The notes under the pieces are model-generated. The model worked only from the letters and a program-made list of their open reading frames with translations, was not told the origin of the DNA and searched no databases. From the IMG/VR virus record IMGVR_UViG_2675903336_000004: DNA of 32,403 nt. The stretch is one strand, 5' to 3'. The stretch comes from a virus. Taxonomy: Duplodnaviria > Heunggongvirae > Uroviricota > Caudoviricetes. Both the position numbers and the translations under genes were made by a program. Positions 714 to 17,832 of this stretch are shown piece after piece; position 1 is the stretch's first letter; each line of letters opens with the position of its first letter.

Positions 714-947
714 TCAATCTGGTCTAACCTGTTTTCTGAGCAATTCAGTAATGTCACTCTTTTCTTTGTTTGCTTCAGGCGAAACTCTTTTTTCTGAGCA
801 CAGTCTCCGGCGGCAGGCTTCAATGACCCAGGCTGAGAAATTCCCGGACCCTTTTTGAACAAGAGCGATGTTAATTTGTTCAATCATTTGGTTAGGAAAG
901 CGGATGTTGCGGGTTGTTGTTCTGCGGGTTCTGTTCTTCGTTGACAT
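714..947 (-). CDS. small basic putative DNA-binding protein (77 aa, possibly ribbon-helix-helix/Arc-like)
   Basis: Complete ORF with a basic N-terminus (STKNRTRRTTTRN) followed by a short strand-helix-like segment. First gene of a leftward two- or three-gene unit. Confidence 0.4.
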   Translation of the reverse strand: MSTKNRTRRTTTRNIRFPNQMIEQINIALVQKGSGNFSAWVIEACRRRLCSEKRVSPEANKEKSDITELLRKQVRPD

Positions 948-1881: not shown

Positions 1882-4901
<3,020 letters not shown>

Positions 4902-4978: not shown

Positions 4979-5031
4979 GTGTATTGCAATGTGTATTGCA
5001 AATTGGCGATCGGGATGGGTGTGTATTGCAA
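4979..5031 (+). repeat. integrase arm-type direct repeats GTGTATTGCAA x3 (attL arm, upstream of int)
   Basis: Exact 11-mers at 4979-4989, 4991-5001 and 5021-5031. Two more copies in the same orientation sit at 15645-15667, just inside attR. Confidence 0.7.
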
Positions 5032-5049: not shown

Positions 5050-6291
5050 ATGGCTATTGAAAACAAACTCAGTGACAAACTGTTAAAGAGTCTTGTCGGA
5101 AAACGGCAGGACAAACAAAAAACAATAGCGGATGGGCGCGGGTTGTCTGTGCGTGTAAGCATGGTTGGGGGGATCAGCTTTGTTTTTTACTATCGTCTTG
5201 GTGGCAGGGAATCCCCTCCGGTATGGCTTACACTTGGTCGCTATCCTGACATGTCTCTTGCAACGGCCAGGCGCATGCGTGATCAGTGCCGTGAATGGCT
5301 GGCTGAAAATCTGGACCCCCGCAGGCAAATAAAACTTGCTGCCGAAAAAACTATGCAACCAGTGACCGTAAGGGATGCGCTGTTTTACTGGTACGACAAT
5401 CACGCCACAACAGCCAGAAAAGAGCATGAATATTTAATAAAACGATTTGAAAAGCATATCTTCCCCTATATCGGTGATATGGCTATAGAACAGTGCAAAT
5501 TACACACATGGCTTACCGTCTTTGACAGGATCAAAAAAAATGCGCCTGTTATGTCTGGTGCAATTTTTCTTGATATCAAACAGGCGTTGCGTTTTTGTCG
5601 CGTCAGGCAATACATCGCGTGCGATCCCTTTGGAGATATTAACGTAAGTTATGTCGGGCGCTCATCCGGTATAAGGGATCGCGTTCTTAATATCAATGAA
5701 ACCGCTGATGTATGGTCTTATGCTTACGGTAATAATTTGCTAACTCTGTCATCAATATATAACCGAAGAATAATGGTTATCTGCCTGGTGTTTGGTTGCC
5801 GACAGCAGGAGGCGAGGCTATCCACCTGGGACGAATGGGATTTAAAAAACTGGGTATGGACAGTCCCAAAAGAGCACAGCAAAAACAAGGAGGCTATAGT
5901 AAGGCCTGTTCCTGACGGAATAAAACAATGGATCGTTAATCTTTACGCAGAAACAAAAAATCGCGGTTATGTTGTCGGTTGTGCTTTGCAAAGGGCGACA
6001 ATAACAGGGGCTGCAAACAGAATATGCAGGCGTCTTGGTCATGATACTAATGGCTTGTGGTGCATACATGATTTCAGGCGCACATTTTCCACTACGCTTA
6101 ATGATATGGGGGCGGATCCTTATATTGTCGAACTTCTTTTAGGTCATAAAGTGAAAGGGGTTGCTGGTGTTTACAATAAAAGCAGGCATATAAAGAAAAA
6201 ACTTGAGGTGCTTAATATGTGGGTTAATTACCTTAATACGATAGCAGGATTTAACAACAACGTTATCGAGCTTAATAAAGAGGTGGTGTGA
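5050..6291 (+). CDS. int: tyrosine-type site-specific integrase (P4-like family)
   Basis: 413-aa ORF with the C-terminal catalytic signature HDFRRTFSTTLNDMGADPYIVELLLGH...VYNKS (His-x-x-Arg and Tyr). Located immediately inside attL, preceded by the arm repeats. Confidence 0.9.
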   Translation: MAIENKLSDKLLKSLVGKRQDKQKTIADGRGLSVRVSMVGGISFVFYYRLGGRESPPVWLTLGRYPDMSLATARRMRDQCREWLAENLDPRRQIKLAAEKTMQPVTVRDALFYWYDNHATTARKEHEYLIKRFEKHIFPYIGDMAIEQCKLHTWLTVFDRIKKNAPVMSGAIFLDIKQALRFCRVRQYIACDPFGDINVSYVGRSSGIRDRVLNINETADVWSYAYGNNLLTLSSIYNRRIMVICLVFGCRQQEARLSTWDEWDLKNWVWTVPKEHSKNKEAIVRPVPDGIKQWIVNLYAETKNRGYVVGCALQRATITGAANRICRRLGHDTNGLWCIHDFRRTFSTTLNDMGADPYIVELLLGHKVKGVAGVYNKSRHIKKKLEVLNMWVNYLNTIAGFNNNVIELNKEVV

Positions 6292-6292
6292 T

Positions 6293-6550
6293 ATGACAAT
6301 TTATTCTCTTGTTGATGAAAACGATTTGCGCACAATGAAGGACATTGATCGGTTCATTCGTGAAAAAGAGTGCATAGCACTTACCACGCTGGCAAACTCA
6401 ACACGCTGGAAAATGGAGCAGGCAGGTAAATTCCCGCGACGTATCAAGATCGGTGAACGTGCTGCAGGGTATCGACTTTCAGAGGTTCAGGCATGGATCC
6501 GTGGTGAGTGGCATCCTGGATGGAAACCTGGAAAAACAAAACAGCAATAA
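6293..6550 (+). CDS. alpA: AlpA-family transcriptional regulator / putative excisionase
   Basis: 85-aa ORF directly downstream of int. The segment IREKECIALTTLANSTRWKMEQAGKFPRRIKIGERAAGYRLSEVQAWI fits the AlpA/Xis-type HTH pattern. Confidence 0.8.
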   Translation: MTIYSLVDENDLRTMKDIDRFIREKECIALTTLANSTRWKMEQAGKFPRRIKIGERAAGYRLSEVQAWIRGEWHPGWKPGKTKQQ

Positions 6551-6606: not shown

Positions 6607-7185
6607 ATGAATAAAAATATTGCCGTGACGGGCAAGGGGTACGCTCGTCCAGTGAAAAAATTCTGCGATATTCGTGATCTCGTCGTTCTGCGCTTTGATA
6701 GTGTGAACGTTCGTGTGGTGTATCTGAACGGCGATCCGTGGTTTGTTGCAAAAGATGTTTGTGCTGCGCTGGAACTAACCAATTCGCGTACGGCGTTGCA
6801 GATGCTTGATGATGATGAAAAGGGAGTAAATTTAACTTACACCCCAGGAGGAAATCAGAATATGAGAATTATCTCTGAGTCAGGTTTCTACAAACTAATA
6901 GCCCGCAGCCGCAAAGCAACGACGCCTGGCACATTTGCTCATCGTTTCAGTAACTGGGTATTCAGAAATGTGATACCAGGTATCAGAAAAACGGGGACTT
7001 ATGGTATCCCGTGGGGTGCATTACAGGATTTTTCCCGCCGTAAAGAGCAATATCAAATAAGTGCCAGCGAGAAGGGGAGGGAGCTACAGGCATGTAAGCG
7101 CAAAAAGCGTGAGCTGGAGGAAGAAGAAAAAACGCTGATACGTGAATATCAGCCTGAGTTTTACTTTGGTAACCGCATTCAGTGA
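6607..7185 (+). CDS. Bro-N domain protein (antirepressor-like)
   Basis: 192-aa ORF. The segment DPWFVAKDVCAALELTNSRTALQMLDDDEKG...ISESGFYKLIARSRKATTPGTFAHRFSNWVFRNVIPGIRKTGTY matches the Bro-N/KilA-N type domain, with a charged coiled-coil-like C-terminus. Confidence 0.65.
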   Translation: MNKNIAVTGKGYARPVKKFCDIRDLVVLRFDSVNVRVVYLNGDPWFVAKDVCAALELTNSRTALQMLDDDEKGVNLTYTPGGNQNMRIISESGFYKLIARSRKATTPGTFAHRFSNWVFRNVIPGIRKTGTYGIPWGALQDFSRRKEQYQISASEKGRELQACKRKKRELEEEEKTLIREYQPEFYFGNRIQ

Positions 7186-7215
7186 CAAAACAAAGGCGAC
7201 CGCAAAAGGGTCGCC
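7186..7215 (-). terminator. putative rho-independent terminator of the leftward operon (possibly bidirectional)
   Basis: Hairpin GGCGACC-gcaaaag-GGTCGCC at 7195-7215, preceded on the + strand by aaaacaaa, which reads as a T-run after the stem on the - strand. Confidence 0.5.
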
Positions 7216-7281
7216 AGTGGGAACAAGGGAAAACAAAAGCATCACCAACAATGCCACATTTGCGGCTGGTGGGCAATGTGA

Positions 7282-7461
7282 TCAGTCAGATTTGGTTCGT
7301 TCCAAGGTTTGCAACGAGAGCTTTTTCCTGTGCTCTTTAAGGAATTTCTCAAGAGCAAACGAACAAGGTGCGAATCTTTCTGATTCATGTTCATGCGCTA
7401 TATTTTTGCGTCGTCTCTTACGAGTTGGTGATGGTGTTTTGGTTGATTCTGTGTCGCTCAT
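7282..7461 (-). CDS. small basic hypothetical protein (59 aa; below the ORF-track threshold)
   Basis: Manual translation of the reverse strand gives MSDTESTKTPSPTRKRRRKNIAHEHESERFAPCSFALEKFLKEHRKKLSLQTLERTKSD. It has an AGGA-containing RBS about 7 nt upstream and lies between orf101 and the terminator on the same strand. Confidence 0.35.
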   Translation of the reverse strand: MSDTESTKTPSPTRKRRRKNIAHEHESERFAPCSFALEKFLKEHRKKLSLQTLERTKSD

Positions 7462-7518
7462 GGTGCTGTCCTGTAAAGCAATGCGCCTGCGTTCCTCAAA
7501 CTATGGCGCTGATATTGG

Positions 7519-7824
7519 CTATTCATGCTCTTTGACCTTGCGTCGCTGGAGTTCTTCACGCGCGACGGTGACGAGTTGCCCGATCTCCTCGGCTGCTTTG
7601 ATGCCGATTTGTTCGACCTTAGCCAGGGCATCCAGTGACGACACAAGGGGATTTTCTCCGCTGCCTTCTGCTTGGCGGCGGGCTATTTCTCCGCGCATGG
7701 CGGTTACGATAAATCCGGCATTGCTTTCACCGTCCAGCTTAACGGATTCCATCCCTTGCATAACATCTAGTGGGACTCTGACAGTTGTCAGTTGTGATTT
7801 TGCGTTTTTGTTAGCCGTTGCCAT
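7519..7824 (-). CDS. putative transcriptional regulator (101 aa), divergent from the island early operon
   Basis: Complete ORF with an AGGAG RBS 8 nt upstream. It is transcribed away from the operator-containing intergenic region, and its position mirrors satellite/phage repressor genes. Fold assignment is tentative. Confidence 0.45.
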   Translation of the reverse strand: MATANKNAKSQLTTVRVPLDVMQGMESVKLDGESNAGFIVTAMRGEIARRQAEGSGENPLVSSLDALAKVEQIGIKAAEEIGQLVTVAREELQRRKVKEHE

Positions 7825-7885
7825 TTCTGAAACTCCTAATCATCGGTGTGTTTCAGTATACACAAAAAAAGAAATACAAAAAGCC

Positions 7886-7923
7886 TTGACGTGTGTTTCA
7901 TGCGCTCATAACATGAAACACAC
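7886..7923 (+). promoter_or_regulatory. rightward promoter (TTGACG, 17 bp, TAACAT) overlapped by a 12-bp perfect inverted-repeat operator
   Basis: GTGTGTTTCATG (7891-7902), 9-bp spacer, CATGAAACACAC (7912-7923). A third half-site GTGTGTTTCA is at 7846-7855. The -35 TTGACG is at 7886-7891 and the -10 TAACAT at 7909-7914. Confidence 0.6.
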
Positions 7924-8014
7924 CGAAAGGATTGTTGAAATACAAAGAGCAACGCCCCGCAGTGCTGGGAACACATACGGGGCGTCTAACCAACAACGTA
8001 AACTAGGAGCCGTT

Positions 8015-8212
8015 ATGGTTGCTGTAAATCATATACCACACCTTGTACACACACAAACGGCCTTTGTGTGGCGTTTTCTGGCACTGAGTGCCGGAGAATC
8101 TCAAATCATCCACGTAACCGCCTGGACGGAACGCGAAGCGCGTAGCCGTTGCCCGTCCGGTTGTGTTGCTGTATTCGCTGCAAAAATCCGCCAGGGAGTG
8201 AGTCATGCTTAA
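8015..8212 (+). CDS. small protein (65 aa), possibly Icd-like cell-division-inhibitor family
   Basis: ATG at 8015 with an AGGAG RBS 5 nt upstream; it shares frame and stop with the tail of the spurious long ORF 7142..8212. First gene after the operator-controlled promoter. Family assignment is from memory of a VWRFLAL-type motif and is tentative. Confidence 0.4.
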   Translation: MVAVNHIPHLVHTQTAFVWRFLALSAGESQIIHVTAWTEREARSRCPSGCVAVFAAKIRQGVSHA

Positions 8213-8390
8213 AACCTTCCGTGTATTTGCCCGAGCTGTTAACCCAATAGGCCACACAATTGGTATCGCTCAGAATGTGAAGGCTGTTAATGTTCAGACG
8301 GCTATTGCTGCGGTGAGAAGCGAATCATCAGAATATGGCTTATCACAAGTCATTATTTCAGCAGTGTATGAATTAAAAGAGGTGCATTAA
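8205..8390 (+). CDS. hypothetical protein (61 aa)
   Basis: Complete ORF whose start overlaps the stop of the preceding gene, indicating a translationally coupled operon. Confidence 0.4.
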   Translation: MLKTFRVFARAVNPIGHTIGIAQNVKAVNVQTAIAAVRSESSEYGLSQVIISAVYELKEVH

Positions 8391-8581
8391 TGCAGGAAAT
8401 TACATTACACGAAGCCGCTGAACGTGCGCACCAGACAGAAATTATTTGCCGCCTTCTTGAGGTATACCCGAACAAAATTACAGATGCTGATATATCCGCA
8501 CTGGCGAGCCTACTGGCGCGTCTTTCGGGAAGTGTCGCTAGTTTTTTGATTGAGGAAGAAAGTAAGCTGGTGGGGGATTAA
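8390..8581 (+). CDS. hypothetical protein (63 aa)
   Basis: Complete ORF with a TAATG stop/start overlap with the previous ORF. Confidence 0.4.
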   Translation: MQEITLHEAAERAHQTEIICRLLEVYPNKITDADISALASLLARLSGSVASFLIEEESKLVGD

Positions 8582-8803
8582 ATGAATACAGAACGGGAAG
8601 TCTTTTTTAAATTGTTAGCATGTGCAGAAAGTTCATTAACTTTAAATAATTCAGCAAAAGCAATATTAAATATGTGGCTTGATTGCATAAATGACAATGA
8701 AGATGCAAATATTGCTTATGGCCTGTTGTCACTTATTGATGAATCAGCAGAAAAACTCAATGACGCAATAAATAGTGCCCTGCTATCAAATAAGTCGAGT
8801 TAA
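8582..8803 (+). CDS. hypothetical protein (73 aa, AT-rich)
   Basis: Complete ORF abutting the previous stop. Codon composition is AT-rich. Confidence 0.4.
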   Translation: MNTEREVFFKLLACAESSLTLNNSAKAILNMWLDCINDNEDANIAYGLLSLIDESAEKLNDAINSALLSNKSS

Positions 8804-8820
8804 GTCGAGGAATAAATAAT

Positions 8821-9120
8821 ATGGAAATGAAAAATTCTGGCTTTATTGCCAGCGGCCCCGCTCGACCTGAATTTATGAACGGCGATATTTACCGCGATAA
8901 ATACGGCGGCACGGTAACGATTAAAGGCGTGGCAGAACGGCGCATCACTTACCGCCGTGAGGGGTATAGCTATGACTGCGTGATGCCTGTTTATCAGTTC
9001 CGGCGTGATTTTTCCCTGGTATATGCCGCACCCCGCAGTAAGCCCATCAGCAGGGAAAAAGCGTGGGGAAATATCCAGAAAATGAAAACCATGATTAACG
9101 GATTCAGAGGTAAAAAATGA
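8821..9120 (+). CDS. hypothetical protein (99 aa)
   Basis: Complete ORF with an ATGA overlap with the pri-rep start. Confidence 0.45.
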   Translation: MEMKNSGFIASGPARPEFMNGDIYRDKYGGTVTIKGVAERRITYRREGYSYDCVMPVYQFRRDFSLVYAAPRSKPISREKAWGNIQKMKTMINGFRGKK

Positions 9121-10871
9121 AACTGGCACCGAACGTAAAACAGCAGTCACGCGGCATAAAACACAAAGGAACAGAAGTCATTATTTTTGCGGGTAGTGAT
9201 GCCTGGGCACACGCGAAACAATGGCAGGAACATGATGCGCGTATGGCCGGAGATAATGAGCCTCCTGTGTGGCTTGGGGAGCAGCAGCTATCCGAACTGG
9301 ATAATCTGCAAATTGTGCCGGAAGGCCGAAAATCAGCACGCATATACAGGGCCGGATATCTTGCGCCTGTAATGATAAAGACGATTGGTCAGAAGCTGGC
9401 GGCAGCAGGCGTACAGGATGCAAATTTTTATCCTGAGGGTATGCACGGCCAGGAGGTGCAGAACTGGCGCGAATATCTGGCCCGTGAACGCCAGAATCTT
9501 TCTGATGGTCTGGTCATTGAGCTTCCGGTAAAGCAAAAGGCGCAACTTTCGCAGATGGCGGACAGTGAGCGCGCGCAGTTGCTTGCCGATCGCTTTGATG
9601 GCGTTTGCGTACATCCTGAAAGTGAAATCGTTCACGTATGGCGCGGCGGGGTATGGTGTCCGGTCAGCACAATGGAACTTAGCCGCGAAATGGTGGCGAT
9701 CTATTCAGAGCACAGGGCCACTTTCAGCAAGCGCGTAATCAATAACGCCGTGGAAGCGTTAAAAGTTATTGCCGAACCAATGGGCGAGCCGTCTGGCGAT
9801 TTGCTGCCGTTCGCCAATGGTGCGCTTGACCTGAAAACGGGGGAATTTTCCCCGCACACGCCGGAGAACTGGATCACCACGCACAACGGCATTGAGTACA
9901 CGCCACCAGCACCAGGGGAGAACATCCGCGATAACGCGCCAAACTTTCATAAATGGCTTGAGCACGCAGCCGGAAAAGACCCGCGCAAGATGATGCGTAT
10001 ATGTGCCGCGCTGTACATGATTATGGCGAACCGGTACGACTGGCAGATGTTTATTGAGGCCACCGGAGACGGCGGGAGCGGTAAAAGTACATTCACACAC
10101 ATAGCCAGCCTTCTGGCAGGGAAACAGAACACGGTAAGCGCTGAAATGACATCGCTTGATGATGCTGGTGGACGTGCGCAGGTTGTCGGGAGTCGTCTTA
10201 TCGTCCTGGCTGACCAGCCGAAATATACAGGCGAAGGAACGGGCATCAAGAAAATCACAGGCGGCGACCCCGTGGAAATTAACCCGAAATATGAAAAGCG
10301 TTTCACGGCGGTAATCAGGGCGGTGGTGCTGGCGACCAACAACAACCCGATGATATTCACCGAACGGGCCGGAGGTGTGGCACGTCGTCGCGTGATTTTC
10401 CGTTTCGACAATATCGTCAGTGAGGCCGAAAAAGACAGGGAGCTACCGGAAAAGATTGCGGCTGAAATCCCCGTTATTATCCGCCGATTGCTGGCGAACT
10501 TTACCGACCCTGAGAAGGCACGGGCTTTACTACTGGAACAGCGTGACGGTGATGAAGCACTGGCAATAAAGCAACAGACGGATCCGGTTATTGAGTTTTG
10601 CCAGTTCCTGAATTTTCTGGAGGAAGCGCGCGGCCTGATGATGGGTGGCGGTGGTGATTCAGTGAAGTACACGACCAGGAACAGCCTTTACCGCGTCTAT
10701 CTGGCGTTTATGGCATACGCGGGCAGGAGCAAACCGCTAAACGTGGCTGAGTTCAGCAAGGCCATGAAGCCAGCGGCGAAAGTTTACGGGCATGAATATA
10801 TTACGCGAAAAGTTAAGGGAGTAACGCAGACCAACGCAATTACAACAGACGATTGCGACGCGTTTTTATAA
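9117..10871 (+). CDS. primase/helicase replication initiator (pri-rep; P4-alpha/D5-like NTPase)
   Basis: 584-aa ORF with Walker A GDGGSGKST and a Walker B-like RLIVLADQP. Size, domain order and position (upstream of an iteron array) are as in PICI pri-rep genes. Confidence 0.85.
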   Translation: MKLAPNVKQQSRGIKHKGTEVIIFAGSDAWAHAKQWQEHDARMAGDNEPPVWLGEQQLSELDNLQIVPEGRKSARIYRAGYLAPVMIKTIGQKLAAAGVQDANFYPEGMHGQEVQNWREYLARERQNLSDGLVIELPVKQKAQLSQMADSERAQLLADRFDGVCVHPESEIVHVWRGGVWCPVSTMELSREMVAIYSEHRATFSKRVINNAVEALKVIAEPMGEPSGDLLPFANGALDLKTGEFSPHTPENWITTHNGIEYTPPAPGENIRDNAPNFHKWLEHAAGKDPRKMMRICAALYMIMANRYDWQMFIEATGDGGSGKSTFTHIASLLAGKQNTVSAEMTSLDDAGGRAQVVGSRLIVLADQPKYTGEGTGIKKITGGDPVEINPKYEKRFTAVIRAVVLATNNNPMIFTERAGGVARRRVIFRFDNIVSEAEKDRELPEKIAAEIPVIIRRLLANFTDPEKARALLLEQRDGDEALAIKQQTDPVIEFCQFLNFLEEARGLMMGGGGDSVKYTTRNSLYRVYLAFMAYAGRSKPLNVAEFSKAMKPAAKVYGHEYITRKVKGVTQTNAITTDDCDAFL

Positions 10872-11889: not shown

Positions 11890-12100
11890 ATTCTGCAAAC
11901 AAAAAGATGCCGGAAAAAAATAGATTTTCCGGCATGCTACATAAATCCCGACCAAAGGAAGTAAATACATTAACACGAATTATCAGCACTGAAGTTGTTA
12001 CGGCATATTTTATACAACATTGCACTTGGTTGCATGTATTCGCATAGCAGACATCGGTAATAGAATATATTCACAATTATTTGTAATGAATGTAAAGAGG

Positions 12101-13147
12101 ATGAGTATGGTTGATTTATATTCGCCTACACAGCTTGTGCAGGTGGCTAATGCTGAAGATGTGCAAAAAAAATTAAATGCGTTGTTTACCAGTTTGTTTT
12201 TCACTCGCTCGGTAATGTTTGAATCGAGAGACATTATTCTTGATACGATCGACGATCCAAATATCCCGATCGCGGCGTTTTGCTCTCCTATGGTGGGCAG
12301 TAAAGTTTCACGAGATGAGGGATACGAATCAAAAACAATTCGTCCAGGTTATATGAAGCCGAAAAGCAGCATTGATCCAAATAAGTTAGCTGTGCGCCCT
12401 GCTGGTGTGTCACCTGAGCAATACAATGCTTTTGGGGCGCGTAATATTAAAGTTAAACAGGCGATTGTAAATCAGGCTAAAGCTATTCGTGCACGTATTG
12501 AATGGCTTGCTGTTCAGGCAATCACAACGGGGAAAAATATCATTGAGGGCGATGGTATTGAACGTTATGAGCTGGACTGGAATATAAAACCACAAAATAT
12601 CATCACTCAGTCTGGCGGTACTGAGTGGTCAGGTAAGGATAAAGAAACTTTTGATCCAAATGATGATATTGAGAGCTACGCAGAATTTAGTGAGGGCGTC
12701 ACTAATATCATCATTATGGGTGGTAATGTATGGAAGAAATACCGTTCATTCAGAGCGATAAAAGAGGCTTTGGATACCCGTCGTGGTTCTAATTCCGAAC
12801 TGGAAACGGCCCTTAAAGACCTTGGTGATTCGGTGAGTTTTAAAGGGTATATGGGCGATGTTGCGATTGTTGTTTACAGCGGGCGTTATACCGACGAGGA
12901 CGGAACAGAAAAACATTTCCTTGATCCTGATTTGATGGTGCTTGGCAATACGGCTCTTCAGGGGATTGTCGCCTATGGCGGTATTCAGGATCCGGAGCTA
13001 ATCCGAATGGGGCTGACTAAAGCCGAACTTGCACCGAAAAACTATATTGTGCCTGGTGATCCGGCTATTGAATATGTGCAGACACATTCAGCACCACAGC
13101 CAATACCGGCCCGCATCAATCGTTTTGTTACCGTTCGCATTGGCTAA
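12101..13147 (+). CDS. lambda gpE-like major capsid protein paralog (island-encoded)
   Basis: Alignable by eye along its length to the helper gpE in this window (18230..19255), e.g. ITQSGGTEWSGKDKETFDPNDDIESYA vs ITQSGVTEWSKRDKSTYDPTDDIEAYA, and TRRGSNSELETALKDLG...YMGDVAIVVYSG vs TRRGSHSELETAVKDLG...MYGDVAIVVYSG. Clearly diverged. An alternative start at 12107 has better RBS spacing. Confidence 0.8.
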   Translation: MSMVDLYSPTQLVQVANAEDVQKKLNALFTSLFFTRSVMFESRDIILDTIDDPNIPIAAFCSPMVGSKVSRDEGYESKTIRPGYMKPKSSIDPNKLAVRPAGVSPEQYNAFGARNIKVKQAIVNQAKAIRARIEWLAVQAITTGKNIIEGDGIERYELDWNIKPQNIITQSGGTEWSGKDKETFDPNDDIESYAEFSEGVTNIIIMGGNVWKKYRSFRAIKEALDTRRGSNSELETALKDLGDSVSFKGYMGDVAIVVYSGRYTDEDGTEKHFLDPDLMVLGNTALQGIVAYGGIQDPELIRMGLTKAELAPKNYIVPGDPAIEYVQTHSAPQPIPARINRFVTVRIG

Positions 13148-13156
13148 GGGGGAGCA

Positions 13157-13498
13157 ATGGCTACTCATTACACTGAACTCATGGCTGGCACTGAAGCACT
13201 GGTGACTACGCTGGGGATATTTTCAGCTAATAAAGGGGTAATTCCTGCATTTACGCCACTGATGCAGGAAGATGCAACAGGTGCACTGGTGGTATGGGAT
13301 GGTTCGAGCGTAGGTAAAGCGGTTTATGTTTCCGCTGTACAAATCGACACAGCGAAAAAAACACAGGCACAGGTTTATAAGACAGGTGTTTTAAATGTTG
13401 ATGCTCTGAACTGGCCTGAGTCTGTAAAAGAACTGTCGGCAAAGGTTGCCGCGTTTGTTGGCTCAGGTATTTCTGTTCAGCCGCTGGCTCGTGTGTAA
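13157..13498 (+). CDS. lambda gpD-like head decoration protein paralog (island-encoded)
   Basis: 113-aa ORF with a strong RBS (AAGGGGGAG). Shares the motifs TPLM, WDG, YKxG and WPE with the helper gpD (17842..18174) at equivalent spacing. Gene order is E-like then D-like, the reverse of lambda. Confidence 0.7.
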   Translation: MATHYTELMAGTEALVTTLGIFSANKGVIPAFTPLMQEDATGALVVWDGSSVGKAVYVSAVQIDTAKKTQAQVYKTGVLNVDALNWPESVKELSAKVAAFVGSGISVQPLARV

Positions 13499-13509
13499 AG
13501 GGGGATACA

Positions 13510-13893
13510 ATGCAGAATCATTACAATGACCTTAAGCCAATTGCCGAAATGATGTATCCGGATCCAGCAGTAGAGGAATTAAAGGCTATTGCTGACAAAA
13601 TGCGTTTAAGTGAACGCCTTGTTGATATGAATCAGGTGATGGAACTTACTACCCTTAGCCGTCGCACATTGCTAAACCTTGAGGCTCGCGGAGAGTTCCC
13701 CGAACGCGTACAGGTTACGGAAGGGCGTAAGGCCTGGTATTTAAGTGAAGTGATCGACTGGATAAACAATATTCCTCGATCTTCTGAATATTGCCGCGTA
13801 CCTGTCCCAAAAAAGCCAGATGCGGCGCTATGCCTCAAGATTGAGCGTGTACGTCGCAATGCACGGGATGGTCGCTATAAGTTGATTGGTTGA
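13510..13893 (+). CDS. AlpA-like HTH DNA-binding protein (second AlpA paralog), directly upstream of the island cos
   Basis: 127-aa ORF with RBS AGGGGG. The central segment MELTTLSRRTLLNLEARGEFPERVQVTEGRKAWYLSEVIDWI fits the AlpA/MerR-like HTH pattern and is flanked by N- and C-terminal extensions. Confidence 0.6.
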   Translation: MQNHYNDLKPIAEMMYPDPAVEELKAIADKMRLSERLVDMNQVMELTTLSRRTLLNLEARGEFPERVQVTEGRKAWYLSEVIDWINNIPRSSEYCRVPVPKKPDAALCLKIERVRRNARDGRYKLIG

Positions 13894-13918
13894 TGAAATT
13901 AGGGCCCGTTCTGGCTGG

Positions 13919-13985
13919 CGGGTCCTTTCCGGCGATCCGGTAGGCTACGGGGCGGCGACCTCGCGGGTTTTCGCTATTTATGAGC
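13919..13985 (+). other. cos: island cos site (cosQ-like segment plus canonical lambda cosN GGGCGGCGACCT at 13950-13961)
   Basis: gggtcctttccggcgatccg...ctacgGGGCGGCGACCTcgcgggttttcgctatttatga matches the lambda cos core as recalled. Downstream sequence, where cosB would be, differs from the prophage cosB. Confidence 0.8.
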
Positions 13986-14094
13986 CTTTTTCGGGTGCTG
14001 GTGGTGGTTTTGTTGTTCGCTCTATCTCTATGAATAAAAAGGAAAAGATAAAGCCAATACACCAACCTGAAACATTACTTAAGTGGGGATATTG

Positions 14095-14637
14095 ATGAAA
14101 TCGCACCTGATGAACAAAAAAAACATGGCGCAAAGCTGCCGTGTAAGTGCGACAGCGTTCGACAAGTGGGGAGTGACTCCCGTTGAACGTAAAGGCCGCG
14201 AGGCGTTTTATGATGTTGCCAGCGTAATAGACAATCGGGTTAGCAATGCAATTAACCAGATTACAGACGACAAAGGCGAGATTGATGATGATGAACTCCT
14301 ACGAGTCAGGATCAGATTGCTGACAGCACAGGCAGAGGCGCAGGAGCTTAAAAACGAGCGCGAACGCGGCGACGTTATTGATACAGCGTTTTGTATATAC
14401 GTGCTTTCAAAATTGGCGAGTCAGATTTCTTCAATCATGGACAGCCTGCCGCTTGCCATGACAAGGAAGTTTCCCGACATGAAGCCGTCTATGCTGGATG
14501 GACTGAAAAAAGAAGTTATCAGAGCCTGTAACGCATGCGCAAAACTTGACGAAAACATACCGCTGATGCTGTCCGATTATCTGATGGAAACTGCCGGAAA
14601 CGTACCGGATAAGTTGCAGCCGAATAAAGATAAGTAA
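14095..14637 (+). CDS. Nu1-like terminase small subunit (island-encoded; diverged N-terminal DNA-binding domain)
   Basis: The C-terminal two-thirds align with helper Nu1 (LTAQAEAQELKNERERGDVIDTAFCIYVLSKLASQISSIMDSLPLAMTRKFPDM vs LTRAQADAQELKNARDSAEVVETAFCTFVLSRIAGEIASILDGIPLSVQRRFPEL). The N-terminal about 60 aa are diverged. ATG at 14095 has a GTGGGG RBS; the track ORF starts at GTG 14083. Confidence 0.85.
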   Translation: MKSHLMNKKNMAQSCRVSATAFDKWGVTPVERKGREAFYDVASVIDNRVSNAINQITDDKGEIDDDELLRVRIRLLTAQAEAQELKNERERGDVIDTAFCIYVLSKLASQISSIMDSLPLAMTRKFPDMKPSMLDGLKKEVIRACNACAKLDENIPLMLSDYLMETAGNVPDKLQPNKDK

Positions 14638-15739: not shown

Positions 15740-15747
15740 AAGGCGAT
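15740..15747. repeat. attR core (AAGGCGAT), right copy of the direct repeat
   Basis: Identical 8-mer to 4842-4849. Lambda B coding sequence resumes immediately to its right. Confidence 0.7.
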
Positions 15748-16316
15748 GTATGCCGCCACCATTGAAAGTGAGCTGGATACGCAGTCAGCGATGGATTTTA
15801 TTCTGGGCGCGAACAGTAAGGAGCAGCGGGAAAGGCTGACGGGCTGGATTGGTGAAATTGCCGCGTATTACGCCGCAGCACCGGTCCGTCTGGGAGGCGC
15901 AAAAGTGCCGCACCTGATGCCGGGGGACTCACTGAACCTGCAGACGGCTCAGGACACGGATAACGGCTACTCCGTGTTTGAGCAGTCACTGTTGCGGTAT
16001 ATCGCTGCCGGGCTGGGTGTCTCGTATGAGCAACTTTCCCGGAATTACGCCCAGATGAGCTACTCCACGGCACGGGCCAGTGCGAACGAGTCGTGGGCGT
16101 ACTTTATGGGGCGGCGAAAATTCGTCGCATCCCGTCAGGCGAGCCAGATGTTTCTGTGCTGGCTGGAAGAGGCCATCGTTCGCCGCGTGGTGACGTTACC
16201 TTCAAAAGCGCGCTTCAGCTTTCAGGAAGCCCGCAGTGCCTGGGGGAACTGCGACTGGATAGGCTCCGGTCGTATGGCCATCGATGGTCTGAAAGAAGTT
16301 CAGGAAGCGGTGATGC
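15746..16316 (+). CDS. B: portal protein B, 3' fragment (from native Met276; truncated by masked gap at 16317)
   Basis: MYAATIESELDTQSAMDFILGANSKEQRERLTGWIGEIAAYYAAAPVRLGG... matches the lambda gpB C-terminal half. The ATG at 15746 overlaps the attR core. Confidence 0.9.
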
Positions 16317-16584
16317 NNNNNNNNNNNNNNNNNNNNNNNNNNNNNNNNNNNNNNNNNNNNNNNNNNNNNNNNNNNNNNNNNNNNNNNNNNNNNNNNNNNN
16401 NNNNNNNNNNNNNNNNNNNNNNNNNNNNNNNNNNNNNNNNNNNNNNNNNNNNNNNNNNNNNNNNNNNNNNNNNNNNNNNNNNNNNNNNNNNNNNNNNNNN
16501 NNNNNNNNNNNNNNNNNNNNNNNNNNNNNNNNNNNNNNNNNNNNNNNNNNNNNNNNNNNNNNNNNNNNNNNNNNNNNNNNNNNN

Positions 16585-17832
16585 GCCTATGCGCGGGTTT
16601 TCTTTTGTGCGCTTGCAGGCCAGCTTGGGATCAGCTGCCTGACGGATGCAGTATCCGGCGACAGCCTGACTGCCGGAGAGGCACCCGCGGCGCTGGCGTT
16701 ATCCGGTGATGATGACGGACCACGACAGGCCCGCAGTTATCAGGTAATGAACGGCATCGCCGTGCTGCCGGTGTCCGGCACGCTGGTCAGCCGGACGCGG
16801 GCGCTGCAGCCGTACTCGGGGATGACCGGTTACAACGGCATTATCGCCCGTCTGCAACAGGCTGCCAGCGACCCGATGGTGGACGGCATTCTGCTCGATA
16901 TGGACACACCGGGCGGAATGGTGGCGGGAGCATTTGACTGCGCTGACATCATCGCCCGTGTGCGTGACATAAAGCCGGTATGGGCGCTGGCCAATGACAT
17001 GAACTGCAGCGCAGGTCAGCTGCTTGCCAGTGCCGCCTCCCGGCGTCTGGTCACGCAGACCGCCCGGACAGGCTCCATCGGCGTCATGATGGCTCACAGT
17101 AATTACGGCGCTGCACTGGAGAAACAGGGCGTGGAAATCACGCTGATTTACAGCGGCAGCCATAAGGTGGATGGCAACCCCTACAGCCATCTACCGGATG
17201 ATGTCCGGGAAACATTGCAGTCCCGGATGGATGCAACCCGCCGGATGTTTGCACAGAAGGTGTCGGCATATACCGGCCTGTCCGTGCAGGCTGTGCTGGA
17301 TACCGAGGCTGCAGTGTACAGCGGTCAGGAGGCCATTGATGCCGGACTGGCTGATGAACTTGTTAACAGTACCGATGCGATCACCGTCATGCGTGATGCA
17401 CTGGATGCACGTAAATCCCGTCTCTCAGGAGGGCGAATGACCAAAGAGACTCAATCAACAACTGTTTCAGCCACTGCTTCGCAGGCTGACGTTACTGGCG
17501 TGGTGCAAGCGACGGAGGGCGAGAACGCCAGCGCGGCGCAGCCGGACGTGAACGCGCAGATCACCGCAGCGGTTGCGGCAGAAAACAGTCGCATTATGGG
17601 GATCCTCAACTGTGAGGAGGCTCACGGACGCGAAGAACAGGCACGCGTGCTGGCCGAAACCCCCGGTATGACCGTGGAAACGGCCCGCCGTATTCTGGCC
17701 GCAGCACCACAGAGTGCACAGACGCGCAGTGACACTGCGCTGGATCGTCTGATGCAGGGGGCACCGGCACCGCTGGCTGCAGGTAACCCGGCATCTGATG
17801 CCGTTAACGATTTGCTGAACACACCAGTGTAA
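16585..17832 (+). CDS. C: capsid assembly protease C (5' end lost in masked gap)
   Basis: After the gap, AYARVFFCALAGQLGIS... through ...AVNDLLNTPV matches lambda gpC from about residue 25. Stop at 17830-17832. The track ORF 16093..17832 is a gap artefact that merges the B and C frames. Confidence 0.9.
   Translation, partial: AYARVFFCALAGQLGISCLTDAVSGDSLTAGEAPAALALSGDDDGPRQARSYQVMNGIAVLPVSGTLVSRTRALQPYSGMTGYNGIIARLQQAASDPMVDGILLDMDTPGGMVAGAFDCADIIARVRDIKPVWALANDMNCSAGQLLASAASRRLVTQTARTGSIGVMMAHSNYGAALEKQGVEITLIYSGSHKVDGNPYSHLPDDVRETLQSRMDATRRMFAQKVSAYTGLSVQAVLDTEAAVYSGQEAIDAGLADELVNSTDAITVMRDALDARKSRLSGGRMTKETQSTTVSATASQADVTGVVQATEGENASAAQPDVNAQITAAVAAENSRIMGILNCEEAHGREEQARVLAETPGMTVETARRILAAAPQSAQTRSDTALDRLMQGAPAPLAAGNPASDAVNDLLNTPV
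17227..17832 (+). CDS. nu3: scaffolding protein Nu3 (in-frame internal start within C)
   Basis: In-frame ATG 606 nt before the C stop, the same geometry as lambda Nu3 within C by recalled coordinates. Confidence 0.7.
   Translation: MDATRRMFAQKVSAYTGLSVQAVLDTEAAVYSGQEAIDAGLADELVNSTDAITVMRDALDARKSRLSGGRMTKETQSTTVSATASQADVTGVVQATEGENASAAQPDVNAQITAAVAAENSRIMGILNCEEAHGREEQARVLAETPGMTVETARRILAAAPQSAQTRSDTALDRLMQGAPAPLAAGNPASDAVNDLLNTPV

What the first reader, a model, noticed from the sequence alone, without database searches (positions are those of the whole stretch)
8015..9120. Translationally coupled operon of five small ORFs between the operator and pri-rep
Five ORFs of 61-99 aa with overlapping stop/start codons (8015-8212, 8205-8390, 8390-8581, 8582-8803, 8821-9120) sit in the position where satellites often carry helper-interference or host-takeover genes. 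The first may be Icd-like. None is recognisable beyond that.
Basis: inference. Interest (0 to 1): 0.45.

Follow-up and report, generated by a model that had tools for sequence, protein, structure and literature searches.

The report
Satellite early operon with nested kil-like gene
The five small genes are real and form the front half of the replication operon of a phage satellite (PICI) lodged inside a prophage; two belong to known families (a P1 Icd / P4 Kil-type cell-division inhibitor and the RgdR regulator), and the first is the tail of a much longer open frame, as in satellite phage P4.

Summary
NCBI's PGAP pipeline annotates the same five CDS. Junctions are -8, -1, 0 and +17 nt, and ORF5 overlaps the primase gene by ATGA. 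Against diverged islands dN/dS is 0.2-0.35 for ORF1, 2, 3 and 5. The element is a Gram-negative PICI inserted in the portal gene of a lambdoid prophage.

"None is recognisable" is wrong.
- ORF1 carries the full Icd-like domain (NF033153). That domain maps onto the FtsZ-binding core of P1 Icd and onto the last 65 codons of the P4 eta frame (Kil).
- ORF5 is DUF4222, 73% identical to RgdR, the O157 regulator of type III secretion and motility, but it reads NGD instead of RGD. Its model is an SH3/Tudor-like barrel plus a basic helix.
- ORF4 is a helical hairpin from a family that sits next to last in 15 of 17 loci.
- ORF2 and ORF3 are exchangeable cassettes of unknown function.

New here: ORF1 ends a 356-codon stop-free frame (7142-8212). 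This frame crosses the promoter and operators and runs antisense through the YlcI/YnfO gene. It is kept open in 9 of 10 loci, a P4 eta/kil-like nesting without the CI RNA. No evidence supports helper interference.

Verdict: an ordinary PICI early operon with one interesting architectural variant.

The parts
7142..8212 (+). Long stop-free frame (356 codons) whose last 65 codons are ORF1. It is the analogue of P4 eta. It overlaps the end of the BRO-N gene (stop at 7183-7185), runs antisense through the YlcI/YnfO gene, and contains the promoter, operators and leader.
   Evidence: no stops in this frame over 7186-8014 against 13 and 15 in the other frames. The same holds in 9 of 10 related loci (P<0.0005 by shuffling in each). 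Only the C-terminal ~60 residues match any protein family.
7519..7824 (-). Divergent YlcI/YnfO-family gene (101 aa), with a ribbon-helix-helix-like N-terminus. It is the putative repressor of the operon.
   Evidence: NCBIfam NF041551 1.6e-17 and phrog_6522 1.5e-64. A repeated motif in the intergenic region differs between islands that carry divergent YlcI/YnfO genes, 60 or 101 aa long. The repressor role is inferred.
7846..7923 (.). Three copies of a 10-nt operator-like motif: GTGTGTTTCA at 7846-7855 and 7891-7900, and inverted TGAAACACAC at 7914-7923. They bracket the promoter.
   Evidence: Read from the sequence. Each related island repeats its own version of the motif at the same three places.
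7886..7914 (+). Sigma-70-like promoter: TTGACG, 17-nt spacer, TAACAT. It lies inside the long frame and is the analogue of P4 PLE.
   Evidence: The -35 TTGAC is conserved in 4 of the 6 islands aligned and reads TTGAA in the other two. This is a consensus match only; no transcript data.
7952..7998 (+). Leader hairpin (ACGCCCCG...CGGGGCGT, 7952-7985) followed by a C-rich, G-poor tract CTAACCAACAACG (7986-7998), upstream of the AGGAG ribosome-binding site (8005-8009).
   Evidence: RNAalifold on 6 islands: 8 of 15 pairs are kept through changes on both sides. No Rfam family matches. Function unknown.
8015..8212 (+). ORF1, 65 aa. Icd-like, homologue of P1 Icd and P4 Kil. First gene after the internal promoter.
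   Evidence: NF033153 1.2e-17 over residues 17-60, covering the whole 48-position model. BLASTP against P1 Icd: 38% over 55 aa, E 6e-8. The P4 eta frame matches the same model at 7.8e-21. ORF1 and P4 share phrog_1743. dN/dS 0.12-0.34.
8205..8390 (+). ORF2, 61 aa, phrog_3672. Function unknown. Exchangeable cassette gene, present in 6 of 17 loci.
   Evidence: dN/dS 0.18-0.26 against diverged alleles. No PDB, Pfam or PADLOC match. Not related to Icd by hhalign.
8390..8581 (+). ORF3, 63 aa, phrog_1478. Function unknown; the sequence looks helical (by eye, not modelled). Exchangeable cassette gene, present in 6 of 17 loci.
   Evidence: dN/dS 0.24-0.30. No credible PDB match.
8582..8803 (+). ORF4, 73 aa, AT-rich (32% GC). 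Two-helix antiparallel hairpin. Its family (phrog_2196/5796) is next to last in 15 of 17 loci, just before DUF4222 (before the primase gene in L012).
8821..9120 (+). ORF5, 99 aa. DUF4222 / RgdR family. SH3/Tudor-like barrel plus a basic C-terminal helix. NGD in place of the RGD motif.
9117..10871 (+). Primase-helicase (D5_N + DUF5906 + Pox_D5; P4-family primase C-terminal domain), translationally coupled to ORF5.

Best explanation
The interval is the promoter-proximal half of the early (replication) operon of a Gram-negative phage-inducible chromosomal island (PICI). The island is embedded in the portal gene of a lambdoid prophage. The operon is the counterpart of the left operon of satellite phage P4 (vis, eta/kil, epsilon, orf151, orf106, alpha).

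Shown here:
- The five ORFs are genuine genes, packed stop-to-start and coupled by ATGA to the primase-helicase gene.
- ORF1 carries the complete Icd-like domain, shared with P1 Icd and with the last 65 codons of the P4 eta frame (Kil).
- As with P4 kil, ORF1 is the tail of a long stop-free frame. That frame starts at the end of the preceding gene and contains the internal promoter.
- ORF5 is an RgdR-family (DUF4222) protein with an SH3/Tudor-like barrel and a basic helix.
- Icd-like comes first, the ORF4-family helical hairpin comes next to last (15 of 17 loci), and DUF4222 comes last, overlapping whichever replication gene follows. This is a near-constant scaffold among E. coli PICIs. ORF2 and ORF3 are swappable.

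Inferred:
- At rest, the divergent YlcI/YnfO ribbon-helix-helix-like protein occupies three operator copies and shuts the internal promoter.
- After helper induction, transcription enters from the AlpA-activated upstream promoter, the internal promoter is derepressed, or both.
- Ribosomes on the long frame, or on ORF1, keep the nascent RNA covered, so transcription is not terminated early. P4 eta sets the precedent.
- Termination-reinitiation then carries ribosomes gene by gene into pri, so the small proteins are made together with the replication protein.
- The Icd/Kil-like protein arrests host division through FtsZ while the island replicates. P1 Icd sets the precedent.
- RgdR resets host and/or island transcription through a non-sequence-specific contact with DNA or RNA polymerase. 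The precedent is RgdR of O157, which binds DNA without specificity, raises LEE1 and lowers motility.
- The functions of ORF2, ORF3 and ORF4 are not known.
For: - Identity of the element: int, alpA, BRO-N, YlcI, primase, SSB, capsid, decoration protein and TerS lie between two halves of a portal gene. This is the HE-PICI configuration of PMC10111431.
- Coding status and coupling.
- ORF1 as Icd/Kil: NF033153 matches ORF1 (1.2e-17), frame-corrected P1 Icd at residues 12-51 (the experimentally defined FtsZ-binding core) and P4 ORF137 at residues 85-132 (7.8e-21) (PMC11897509). ORF1 and P4 share phrog_1743.
- Nested frame: no stops over 511-1264 nt in 9 of 10 loci, against 10-28 in each other frame. 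The frame starts right after alpA or the Bro/Ant gene. Two loci show Phage_ASH followed by Icd-like in one frame, exactly as in P4.
- Summary of P4 eta/kil regulation.
- ORF5 as RgdR family.
- Constant scaffold: Icd-like in 17 of 17 loci, ORF4 family in 15 of 17, DUF4222 in 16 of 17. The replication partner is a primase, DUF927 or RepA helicase, and one read-through fusion joins DUF4222 to a zinc-ribbon primase.
- Operator repeats that differ between islands carrying divergent YlcI/YnfO genes.
Against: - No expression data. The promoter, repressor role and terminators are inferred from sequence.
- The P4 immunity RNA is absent. There is no C4 or isrK match, so the P4 mechanism cannot apply unchanged.
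- Pairwise BLASTP of ORF1 against P4 Kil finds nothing. The link rests on profiles.
- The N-terminal 296 residues of the long frame match no family, read like non-protein sequence, and have no clear start codon (GTG 7142 or TTG 7166).
- One related locus (L004) has the frame closed.
- ORF5 has N20. An engineered R20N change lowered type III secretion activation by RgdR, so the published phenotype may not transfer.
Confidence: 0.6

Rival explanations
1. Helper-interference payload. The small proteins mainly act on the helper phage, blocking or redirecting its replication, late transcription or assembly, as P4 epsilon, Sid and Psu or the SaPI interference genes do.
For: - The position matches that of P4 epsilon (helper derepression), between eta/kil and alpha.
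- ORF2 and ORF3 are exchangeable cassettes, as expected of genes in an arms race.
- In the model PICI the genes upstream of pri were never tested for interference.
Against: - No similarity to epsilon (Pfam 'Derepression') or to any P4 left-operon protein other than Kil.
- No PADLOC hit.
- Lambda interference by EcCICFT073 was traced to rppA, downstream of the ori, and escape mutants map only to TerS.
- The Icd-like, ORF4-family and DUF4222 genes are near-constant across islands with different packaging modules and integration sites. That fits core functions better than helper-specific ones.
Confidence: 0.12
2. Replication accessory module. ORF5 (DUF4222), and perhaps ORF4, are cofactors of the replication initiator, acting as loader, origin-binding partner or copy-number control. 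The effects of RgdR on LEE and motility would then be side effects of a basic DNA-binding protein.
For: - DUF4222 overlaps the replication gene by ATGA in all 14 annotated E. coli loci, whatever the type of that gene. One protein is a read-through fusion to a primase zinc ribbon.
- RgdR binds DNA without sequence specificity.
- The family is absent from phages.
Against: [quoted passage not shown] No accessory gene is mentioned, and whether rgdR was on the clone is not stated.
- The cf-PICI vB_KppS-Ant has the primase but no DUF4222.
- The fold match is generic.
Confidence: 0.2
3. The long frame is not translated. ORF1 is a free-standing gene, and the missing stop codons upstream are a by-product of genes on the opposite strand and of sequence constraints in the regulatory region.
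For: - The N-terminal 296 residues have no family match and an odd composition.
- There is no convincing start codon or ribosome-binding site in the window.
- PGAP annotates only the short form here, and calls the upstream parts pseudogenes in other islands.
- L004 has the frame closed.
Against: - The ~195-nt stretch between the YlcI start and the ORF1 ATG has no gene on either strand, yet it has no stops in the icd frame in 7 of 8 YlcI-type loci, against 3-8 in each other frame. These sequences are strongly diverged.
- Over the whole gap the count is 0 against 10-28 per frame in 9 of 10 loci.
- The frame always begins at the stop of the preceding plus-strand gene.
- P4 has exactly this arrangement, with a homologous terminal domain.
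Confidence: 0.15
4. Host-benefit cargo (morons). The small genes, RgdR above all, are kept because they tune host virulence and behaviour during lysogeny, not because the island needs them.
For: - Deleting rgdR or OI-51 lowers type III secretion, adherence and sheep colonisation in O157.
- PICIs also carry PerC-type LEE regulators.
Against: - RgdR-family genes occur in strains without LEE, including UPEC, NMEC and commensals.
- They sit inside a repressor-controlled lytic-type operon, coupled to pri, rather than behind their own promoter.
- The window allele has N20, a change that weakened LEE activation.
Confidence: 0.1

Closest known systems
Satellite phage P4 left operon with the nested genes kil and eta (Forti et al. 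1999, J Bacteriol 181:5225, as summarised in PMC10111431)
   Same: - Gene order: alpA/vis, then a long frame whose terminal 65 codons form a separately translated small gene downstream of an internal promoter, then small coupled ORFs, then the primase.
- The terminal domain is homologous (NF033153 and phrog_1743 match both).
- Some PICIs even keep the Phage_ASH plus Icd-like pair in one frame, as P4 does.
   Different: - No CI/C4/isrK immunity RNA. Instead a protein gene (YlcI/YnfO family) lies on the opposite strand inside the long frame, with three operator repeats.
- The window frame has no Ash domain.
- The downstream small genes (ORF2-5) are unrelated to epsilon, orf151 and orf106.
- The kil length of 65 aa is recalled from memory and checked here against the P4 sequence.
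Phage P1 Icd (immI operon: c4, icd, ant)
   Same: - Same domain family. P1 residues 12-51, the FtsZ-binding and growth-inhibiting core, align with ORF1 residues 17-60. W-R-F, T/A-E-x-E-A-R and P-x-G are conserved (PMC11897509).
- It is also the first translated gene of a repressor-controlled operon.
   Different: - 38% identity over 55 aa.
- P1 controls icd through the C4 antisense RNA, which is absent here.
- FtsZ binding by the PICI protein is untested.
RgdR (ECs1581, O-island 51 / CP-933C of E. coli O157:H7; Flockhart et al. 2012, PMC3378721)
   Same: - Same length (99 aa), same Pfam domain (DUF4222), 73% identity, and the same position directly upstream of and overlapping the island's replication gene.
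- OI-51 is itself a PICI (PMC6092414).
   Different: - The window protein reads NGD instead of RGD at residues 20-22, and differs at A10, K27 and R45.
- R20N lowered type III secretion activation in RgdR.
- The molecular target of RgdR is unknown.
Gram-negative PICIs of the EcCICFT073 type, and helper-embedded PICIs (PMC6092414, PMC10111431)
   Same: - int, alpA, Bro zone, replication zone and late zone, all in one direction.
- Inserted in a late gene of a lambdoid prophage and co-oriented with it.
- RgdR is reported in all E. coli PICIs analysed.
   Different: - Those papers treat the small genes between the Bro zone and pri as hypothetical.
- They do not describe the Icd-like/Kil homology, the stop-free frame across the YlcI gene, or the fixed order Icd-like, ORF4 family, DUF4222.
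Bacterial Tudor/SH3-like RNA-polymerase-binding domains (UvrD/PcrA C-terminal domain, CarD and Mfd RID)
   Different: 10-17% identity, no Z at or above 8, and the fold is very common. RNA polymerase binding was not tested. This is a lead, not a classification.

Membership tests
Icd-like domain family (NCBIfam NF033153; P1 Icd, P4 Kil) | Profile match above the curated cut-off, covering the whole domain | tested here: met
   63.7 bits against a cut-off of 25; ORF1 residues 17-60 match model positions 1-48 of 48.
Icd-like domain family (NCBIfam NF033153; P1 Icd, P4 Kil) | The domain corresponds to the P1 Icd core (residues 12-51) that is sufficient for FtsZ binding and growth arrest | tested here: met
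   Frame-corrected P1 Icd matches the same model at residues 12-51. BLASTP of ORF1 against P1 Icd gives E 6e-8. The core is defined in PMC11897509.
Icd-like domain family (NCBIfam NF033153; P1 Icd, P4 Kil) | Binds FtsZ, blocks the Z-ring and causes filamentation | not testable with these tools
   Needs expression, microscopy and two-hybrid or pull-down assays.
P4-type nested kil/eta gene pair | The small gene is the 3' end of a longer open frame that begins upstream of the internal promoter | tested here: met
   The frame is open over 7142-8212 and the promoter lies at 7886-7914. No stops over 7186-8014 against 13 and 15 in the other frames. The same holds in 9 of 10 loci.
P4-type nested kil/eta gene pair | The terminal domain is homologous to P4 Kil | tested here: met
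   P4 ORF137 residues 85-132 match NF033153 at 7.8e-21. Both proteins match phrog_1743. Pairwise BLASTP is negative.
P4-type nested kil/eta gene pair | Immunity RNA (CI; Rfam C4/isrK) and its target sites embedded in the frame | tested here: not met
   No Rfam match at gathering threshold in the window. Nothing relevant at E up to 10 over 7750-8350.
P4-type nested kil/eta gene pair | The long frame starts next to (is coupled to) the upstream alpA/vis-type gene | tested here: inconclusive
   In related loci the frame opens 5-15 nt after alpA (58 nt in L003), or overlaps the Ant gene stop. In the window it opens at 7142, overlapping the BRO-N stop at 7183-7185, with only GTG 7142 or TTG 7166 as candidate starts.
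P4-type nested kil/eta gene pair | Translation of the frame suppresses transcription termination | not testable with these tools
   Needs reporter fusions, stop-codon mutants and Rho inhibition.
RgdR / DUF4222 family | Pfam PF13973 match above the gathering score; about 99 aa with a conserved core at residues 20-68 | tested here: met
   83.2 bits against 27. Residues 16-67 align. 73% identity to the O157 protein that carries all six residues diagnostic of ECs1581.
RgdR / DUF4222 family | RGD tripeptide at residues 20-22 | tested here: not met
   The window protein reads N20-G21-D22. R20N lowered type III secretion activation in RgdR.
RgdR / DUF4222 family | Activates LEE1/type III secretion and represses motility | not testable with these tools
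   Needs expression in an EHEC rgdR mutant.
Gram-negative PICI / helper-embedded PICI | int, alpA and a primase-type replication gene in one direction, in a 10-15 kb island with captured late genes | tested here: met
   int 5050-6291, alpA 6293-6550, pri 9117-10871, then SSB, capsid, decoration protein and TerS up to about 14930.
Gram-negative PICI / helper-embedded PICI | [quoted passage not shown] | tested here: met
   In the matching annotated record the island lies between the N-terminal and C-terminal fragments of a phage portal gene, after terminase and before protease and capsid. An 11-bp repeat, GTGTGTATTGC, occurs at 5019 and 15655.
Gram-negative PICI / helper-embedded PICI | Induction, replication and packaging depend on a helper phage | not testable with these tools
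   Experimental.
Tudor-like RNA-polymerase-binding domains (UvrD/PcrA C-terminal domain, CarD RID) | Fold match clearly above that of other small barrels, and contact with the RNA polymerase beta lobe | tested here: inconclusive
Known anti-phage defence systems (PADLOC-DB) | Profile match to a component of a known or candidate defence system | tested here: not met
   No hits for ORF1-5, YlcI or BRO-N at E up to 0.01.

The most novel reading that the evidence does not exclude
The operon is governed by a dual-strand switch not yet described for PICIs. It would work in two parts.
- A stop-free 'ribosome track' (7142-8212) is selected for translatability rather than for its protein. It runs antisense through the island's own repressor gene and over its operators. 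This would let AlpA-driven transcripts from upstream escape both repression and Rho-dependent termination, so that they deliver Kil/Icd, RgdR and the primase.
- RgdR is a Tudor-like factor that binds RNA polymerase or the nucleoid and reprograms host transcription. That would explain its pleiotropic, sequence-independent effects on LEE, motility and curli.
Probability: 0.25. Interest if true: 0.6.

Novelty: new variant of a known kind. Interest (0 to 1): 0.4.

Why it matters
Islands carrying at least part of this interval occur in about a third of complete E. coli genomes (1748 of 5426). How Gram-negative PICIs are kept silent and then switched on is still unclear: AlpA is known to be an activator, but a repressor has not been identified.

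Three results bear on that question.
- The first gene of the replication operon is a Kil/Icd homologue nested in an eta-like frame.
- A YlcI/YnfO gene with island-specific operator repeats lies inside that frame.
- Together these give a concrete, testable model that links PICI regulation to the well-studied P4 immunity region.

The work also puts RgdR, a published virulence regulator of O157 with no known mechanism, into its native context. It is the last gene before the replication protein, it is specific to satellites, and it has an SH3/Tudor-like fold. This suggests where to look for its target.

For annotation, two points follow. The PHROG label 'transcriptional repressor' on Icd-like families most likely derives from the obsolete 'cI gene product' label of P4. 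The 'pseudogene' calls upstream of icd in many genomes probably mark the long frame.

Tried and rejected
- Rfam, whole window at gathering threshold and 7750-8350 at E up to 10: no C4, isrK or other relevant family.
- PDB sequence and profile searches for ORF1-5: nothing credible.
- PADLOC: nothing.
- ORF2 as an Icd paralogue, and ORF3 as an ORF4 paralogue: hhalign probabilities below 1%.
- P4 orf151 as a DUF4222 relative. A shared 'RFLREFT' motif is visible by eye, but Pfam gives no hit and a broad DUF4222 profile scores 1.8 bits, so the idea is rejected.
- BLASTP of ORF1 against P4 Kil: no alignment. The homology rests on profiles only.
- tblastn of ORF5 against 50,697 phage genomes: no match.
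- A genome-contig scan for DUF4222 loci returned only 2 loci because the patterns were too strict.
- A word-based homologue search with ORF4 alone found only 6 near-identical proteins. A profile search was needed.
- DUF4222 profile against 1.8 billion representatives. The two long hits are repeat proteins (aRib and the like) and spurious. Only P0300 is informative.
- Fold search of the ORF4 model: only generic helical hairpins, with no functional lead.
- BFVD search of the ORF5 model: DUF1653 and unnamed proteins.
- The afdb50 library was unavailable.
- The hairpin plus T-run inside ORF1 (8050-8080) as a translation-sensitive terminator. The T-run is the conserved W-R-F codons, and the other icd allele has a different hairpin without it, so this is inconclusive.
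- The helper prophage's own YlcI (window 714-947, minus strand) against the island's YlcI: only marginal pairwise similarity.
- Forti 1999 (PMC94026) is not held in the library.
Full report
**What is there**

The window matches E. coli chromosomes. The stretch 7400-9400 is 100% identical in 19 of the listed complete genomes.

The surroundings show a Gram-negative PICI:
- integrase 5050-6291
- AlpA 6293-6550
- BRO-N protein 6607-7185
- a divergent YlcI/YnfO-family gene 7519-7824 on the minus strand
- the five small ORFs
- primase-helicase 9117-10871
- SSB, major capsid, head decoration protein, an HTH protein and TerS

The whole island lies between the two halves of the portal gene of a lambdoid prophage. 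This is the 'helper-embedded PICI' configuration of Tommasini, Mageeney and Williams (PMC10111431).

**Check of the observation**

The junctions read from the sequence:

| Junction | Spacing |
|---|---|
| ORF1/ORF2 | 8-nt overlap |
| ORF2/ORF3 | TAATG (1-nt overlap) |
| ORF3/ORF4 | TAAATG (abutting) |
| ORF4/ORF5 | 17-nt gap |
| ORF5/pri | ATGA (4-nt overlap) |

The packing is real, but it extends into pri. All five ORFs are coding. Against diverged alleles from other islands, dN/dS is 0.12-0.34 for ORF1, 0.18-0.26 for ORF2, 0.24-0.30 for ORF3 and 0.20-0.40 for ORF5. ORF4 is too diverged to measure, but it matches phrog_2196 at 1e-28.

**A constant scaffold with a variable middle**

Parts of the interval occur in 1748 of 5426 complete E. 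coli genomes. The exact five-gene version occurs in 86. I compared the window with 16 other loci: 14 from E. coli, one from Shigella flexneri and one from E. albertii; one of the E. coli entries is an induced cf-PICI deposited as a 'phage'. Profiles built from the five families gave these counts:

| Family | Loci (of 17) | Position |
|---|---|---|
| Icd-like | 17 | always first |
| ORF4 family | 15 | next to last, just before DUF4222 (before pri in L012) |
| DUF4222 | 16 | always last |
| ORF2 family | 6 | variable |
| ORF3 family | 6 | variable |

- Other small-gene families replace ORF2 and ORF3 elsewhere.
- The smallest operon seen is Icd-like, ORF4 family, DUF4222, primase.
- DUF4222 overlaps the next gene by ATGA in all 14 annotated E. 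coli loci. That next gene may be a D5-type primase, a DUF927 protein or a RepA-family helicase.
- One database protein is a read-through fusion of DUF4222 to the zinc ribbon of a P4-alpha-type primase.

**ORF5 is RgdR-like**

- Pfam DUF4222 matches at 9e-24.
- A literature search on the domain led to RgdR (ECs1581) of O157:H7 O-island 51. RgdR is a 99-aa, pI 10 protein that activates LEE1 and type III secretion, represses motility, and binds DNA without sequence specificity. Residue 20 of its RGD motif matters (PMC3378721, PMC10877973).
- The O157 homologue in my set carries all six diagnostic residues of ECs1581. The window protein is 73% identical to it but reads NGD. An engineered R20N change lowered type III secretion activation.
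- Fillol-Salom et al. already noted that RgdR is encoded by all E. coli PICIs they analysed. This part is known biology.
- The AlphaFold2 model has core pLDDT 84-89. It shows a five-stranded SH3/Tudor-like barrel (residues 23-68) and a basic C-terminal helix (78-96).
- The family is narrow: 77 clusters among 1.8 billion representatives, nearly all stand-alone proteins of 40-110 aa. It is absent from 50,697 phage genomes.

**ORF1 is Icd- and Kil-like, and nested**

- ORF1 matches NF033153 over the whole model.
- The old P1 record X15639 has a one-base frame error. The corrected 73-aa Icd agrees with the residue numbers quoted in PMC11897509. It matches the same model at residues 12-51, exactly the segment shown to bind FtsZ and stop growth.
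- The PHROG label 'transcriptional repressor' on the Icd-like families led me to P4. The obsolete P4 'cI gene product' ORF137 is Phage_ASH (residues 22-85) plus an Icd-like domain (85-132, 7.8e-21). Its last 65 codons, behind an AGGAGG site, are kil.
- In P4, kil is the first gene after the constitutive promoter PLE and the tail of eta. Eta starts upstream and is translated only from the late promoter, and its translation prevents termination (Forti 1999, as summarised).
- The window shows the same geometry. ORF1 is 65 codons long and ends a frame open from 7142.
- Between the stop of the preceding plus-strand gene and the icd ATG, the icd frame has no stops in 9 of 10 loci over 511-1264 nt, against 10-28 in each other frame. 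Shuffles give P<0.0005 per locus.
- The same holds for the ~195-nt stretch that holds the promoter and operators and has no gene on either strand: 0 stops against 3-8, in 7 of 8 YlcI-type loci, despite strong sequence divergence.
- In two islands the frame reads Phage_ASH followed by Icd-like, as in P4.

There are also differences from P4:
- There is no CI/C4/isrK RNA.
- The frame instead carries, on its opposite strand, a YlcI/YnfO gene with a ribbon-helix-helix-like N-terminus.
- Each island repeats its own 10-nt motif at the same three places around the promoter. In the window these are at 7846-7855, 7891-7900 and, inverted, 7914-7923.
- The upstream 296 residues of the window frame match no family and look non-protein-like. 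If the frame is used, what is selected may be ribosome transit rather than the protein.

**ORF2, ORF3 and ORF4**

**Interpretation**

The best-supported reading is that this is the front half of the island's early (replication) operon, homologous in layout and in its first gene to the P4 left operon.

The inferred steps are:
- repression by the YlcI/YnfO protein at the internal promoter;
- entry of AlpA-driven transcripts from upstream;
- protection from termination by translation of the long frame;
- coupled translation down to pri;
- division arrest by the Icd/Kil-like protein;
- transcriptional reprogramming by RgdR.

Helper interference has no support. The lambda interference of the model island maps to rppA, downstream of the ori. 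The upstream small genes were not tested there, so the idea is not excluded, especially for the exchangeable ORF2 and ORF3.

**Verdict**

- The finding is real.
- It is largely an ordinary, already annotated part of a known kind of element.
- Two of the five genes are recognisable and one family has been characterised experimentally.
- The part worth a specialist's attention is the eta/kil-type nesting with an antisense repressor gene in place of the immunity RNA, together with the fixed Icd-like, hairpin, RgdR, replication-gene scaffold.

Noticed in passing
window 4020-4901 and about 15746-16642; repeats at 5019 and 15655: The PICI sits inside the portal gene of a lambdoid (DLP12-like) prophage and is co-oriented with its late genes, the helper-embedded PICI configuration. 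An 11-bp direct repeat, GTGTGTATTGC, lies just left of int and just before the portal C-terminal part. It is a candidate att core.
   Followed up: partly
window 7846-7855, 7891-7900, 7914-7923: A 10-nt motif occurs three times around the divergent promoters. Each related island has its own version of the motif at the same three places, and the islands carry divergent YlcI/YnfO genes. This looks like immunity-type operators for a ribbon-helix-helix repressor.
   Followed up: partly
window 7952-7998: A leader hairpin is kept through compensatory changes in six diverged islands. A conserved C-rich, G-poor tract follows it, just upstream of the ORF1 ribosome-binding site. It matches no Rfam family. 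It could be a rut- or nut-like site or an RNA stabiliser.
   Followed up: partly
window 7282-7461 (minus strand); terminator-like hairpin 7215-7195 (minus strand): An unannotated 59-aa ORF lies downstream of the YlcI/YnfO gene on the minus strand and ends before a terminator-like hairpin. Other islands have one to three small annotated genes at this position.
   Followed up: no
window 8050-8080: A hairpin followed by GCGTTTTCT lies inside ORF1 and resembles an intrinsic terminator. The T-run is the conserved W-R-F codons. The other icd allele has a different GC-rich hairpin without a T-run.
   Followed up: partly
window 714-947 (minus strand): The surrounding helper prophage encodes its own YlcI/YnfO-family protein (77 aa), next to a DUF1398 gene. 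Pairwise it is only marginally similar to the island's 101-aa protein.
   Followed up: partly
window 8582-8803: ORF4 is much more AT-rich (32% GC, GC3 23%) than its neighbours (41-53%). ORF3 and ORF4 are identical in protein to those of island L010, whose ORF1 is only 48% identical. This points to cassette exchange at gene boundaries.
   Followed up: partly
L011 (GenBank X15639, phage P1 immI region), about nt 448: The old P1 record has a one-base frame error in icd. A frame shift at that point restores the 73-aa Icd, whose residue numbers match those quoted in PMC11897509.
   Followed up: yes
PHROG families phrog_1743, phrog_6196, phrog_6928; L019 (P4) 8168-8584 minus strand: The 'transcriptional repressor' label on these Icd-like PHROG families most likely comes from the obsolete 'cI gene product' label on P4 ORF137 (the eta/kil frame). 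In P4 the real CI is an RNA, so the label is an annotation trap.
   Followed up: yes
L003 3327-3920, L005 3052-3531, L008 2032-2311, L009 1905-2912: PGAP marks 'Icd-like' or 'ash family' pseudogenes upstream of icd in several islands. These lie in the same open frame as icd and probably mark the long eta-like frame rather than decayed genes.
   Followed up: partly
window 12020-14637: The island carries its own major capsid, head decoration and small terminase homologues alongside those of the surrounding prophage. These are captured late genes.
   Followed up: no
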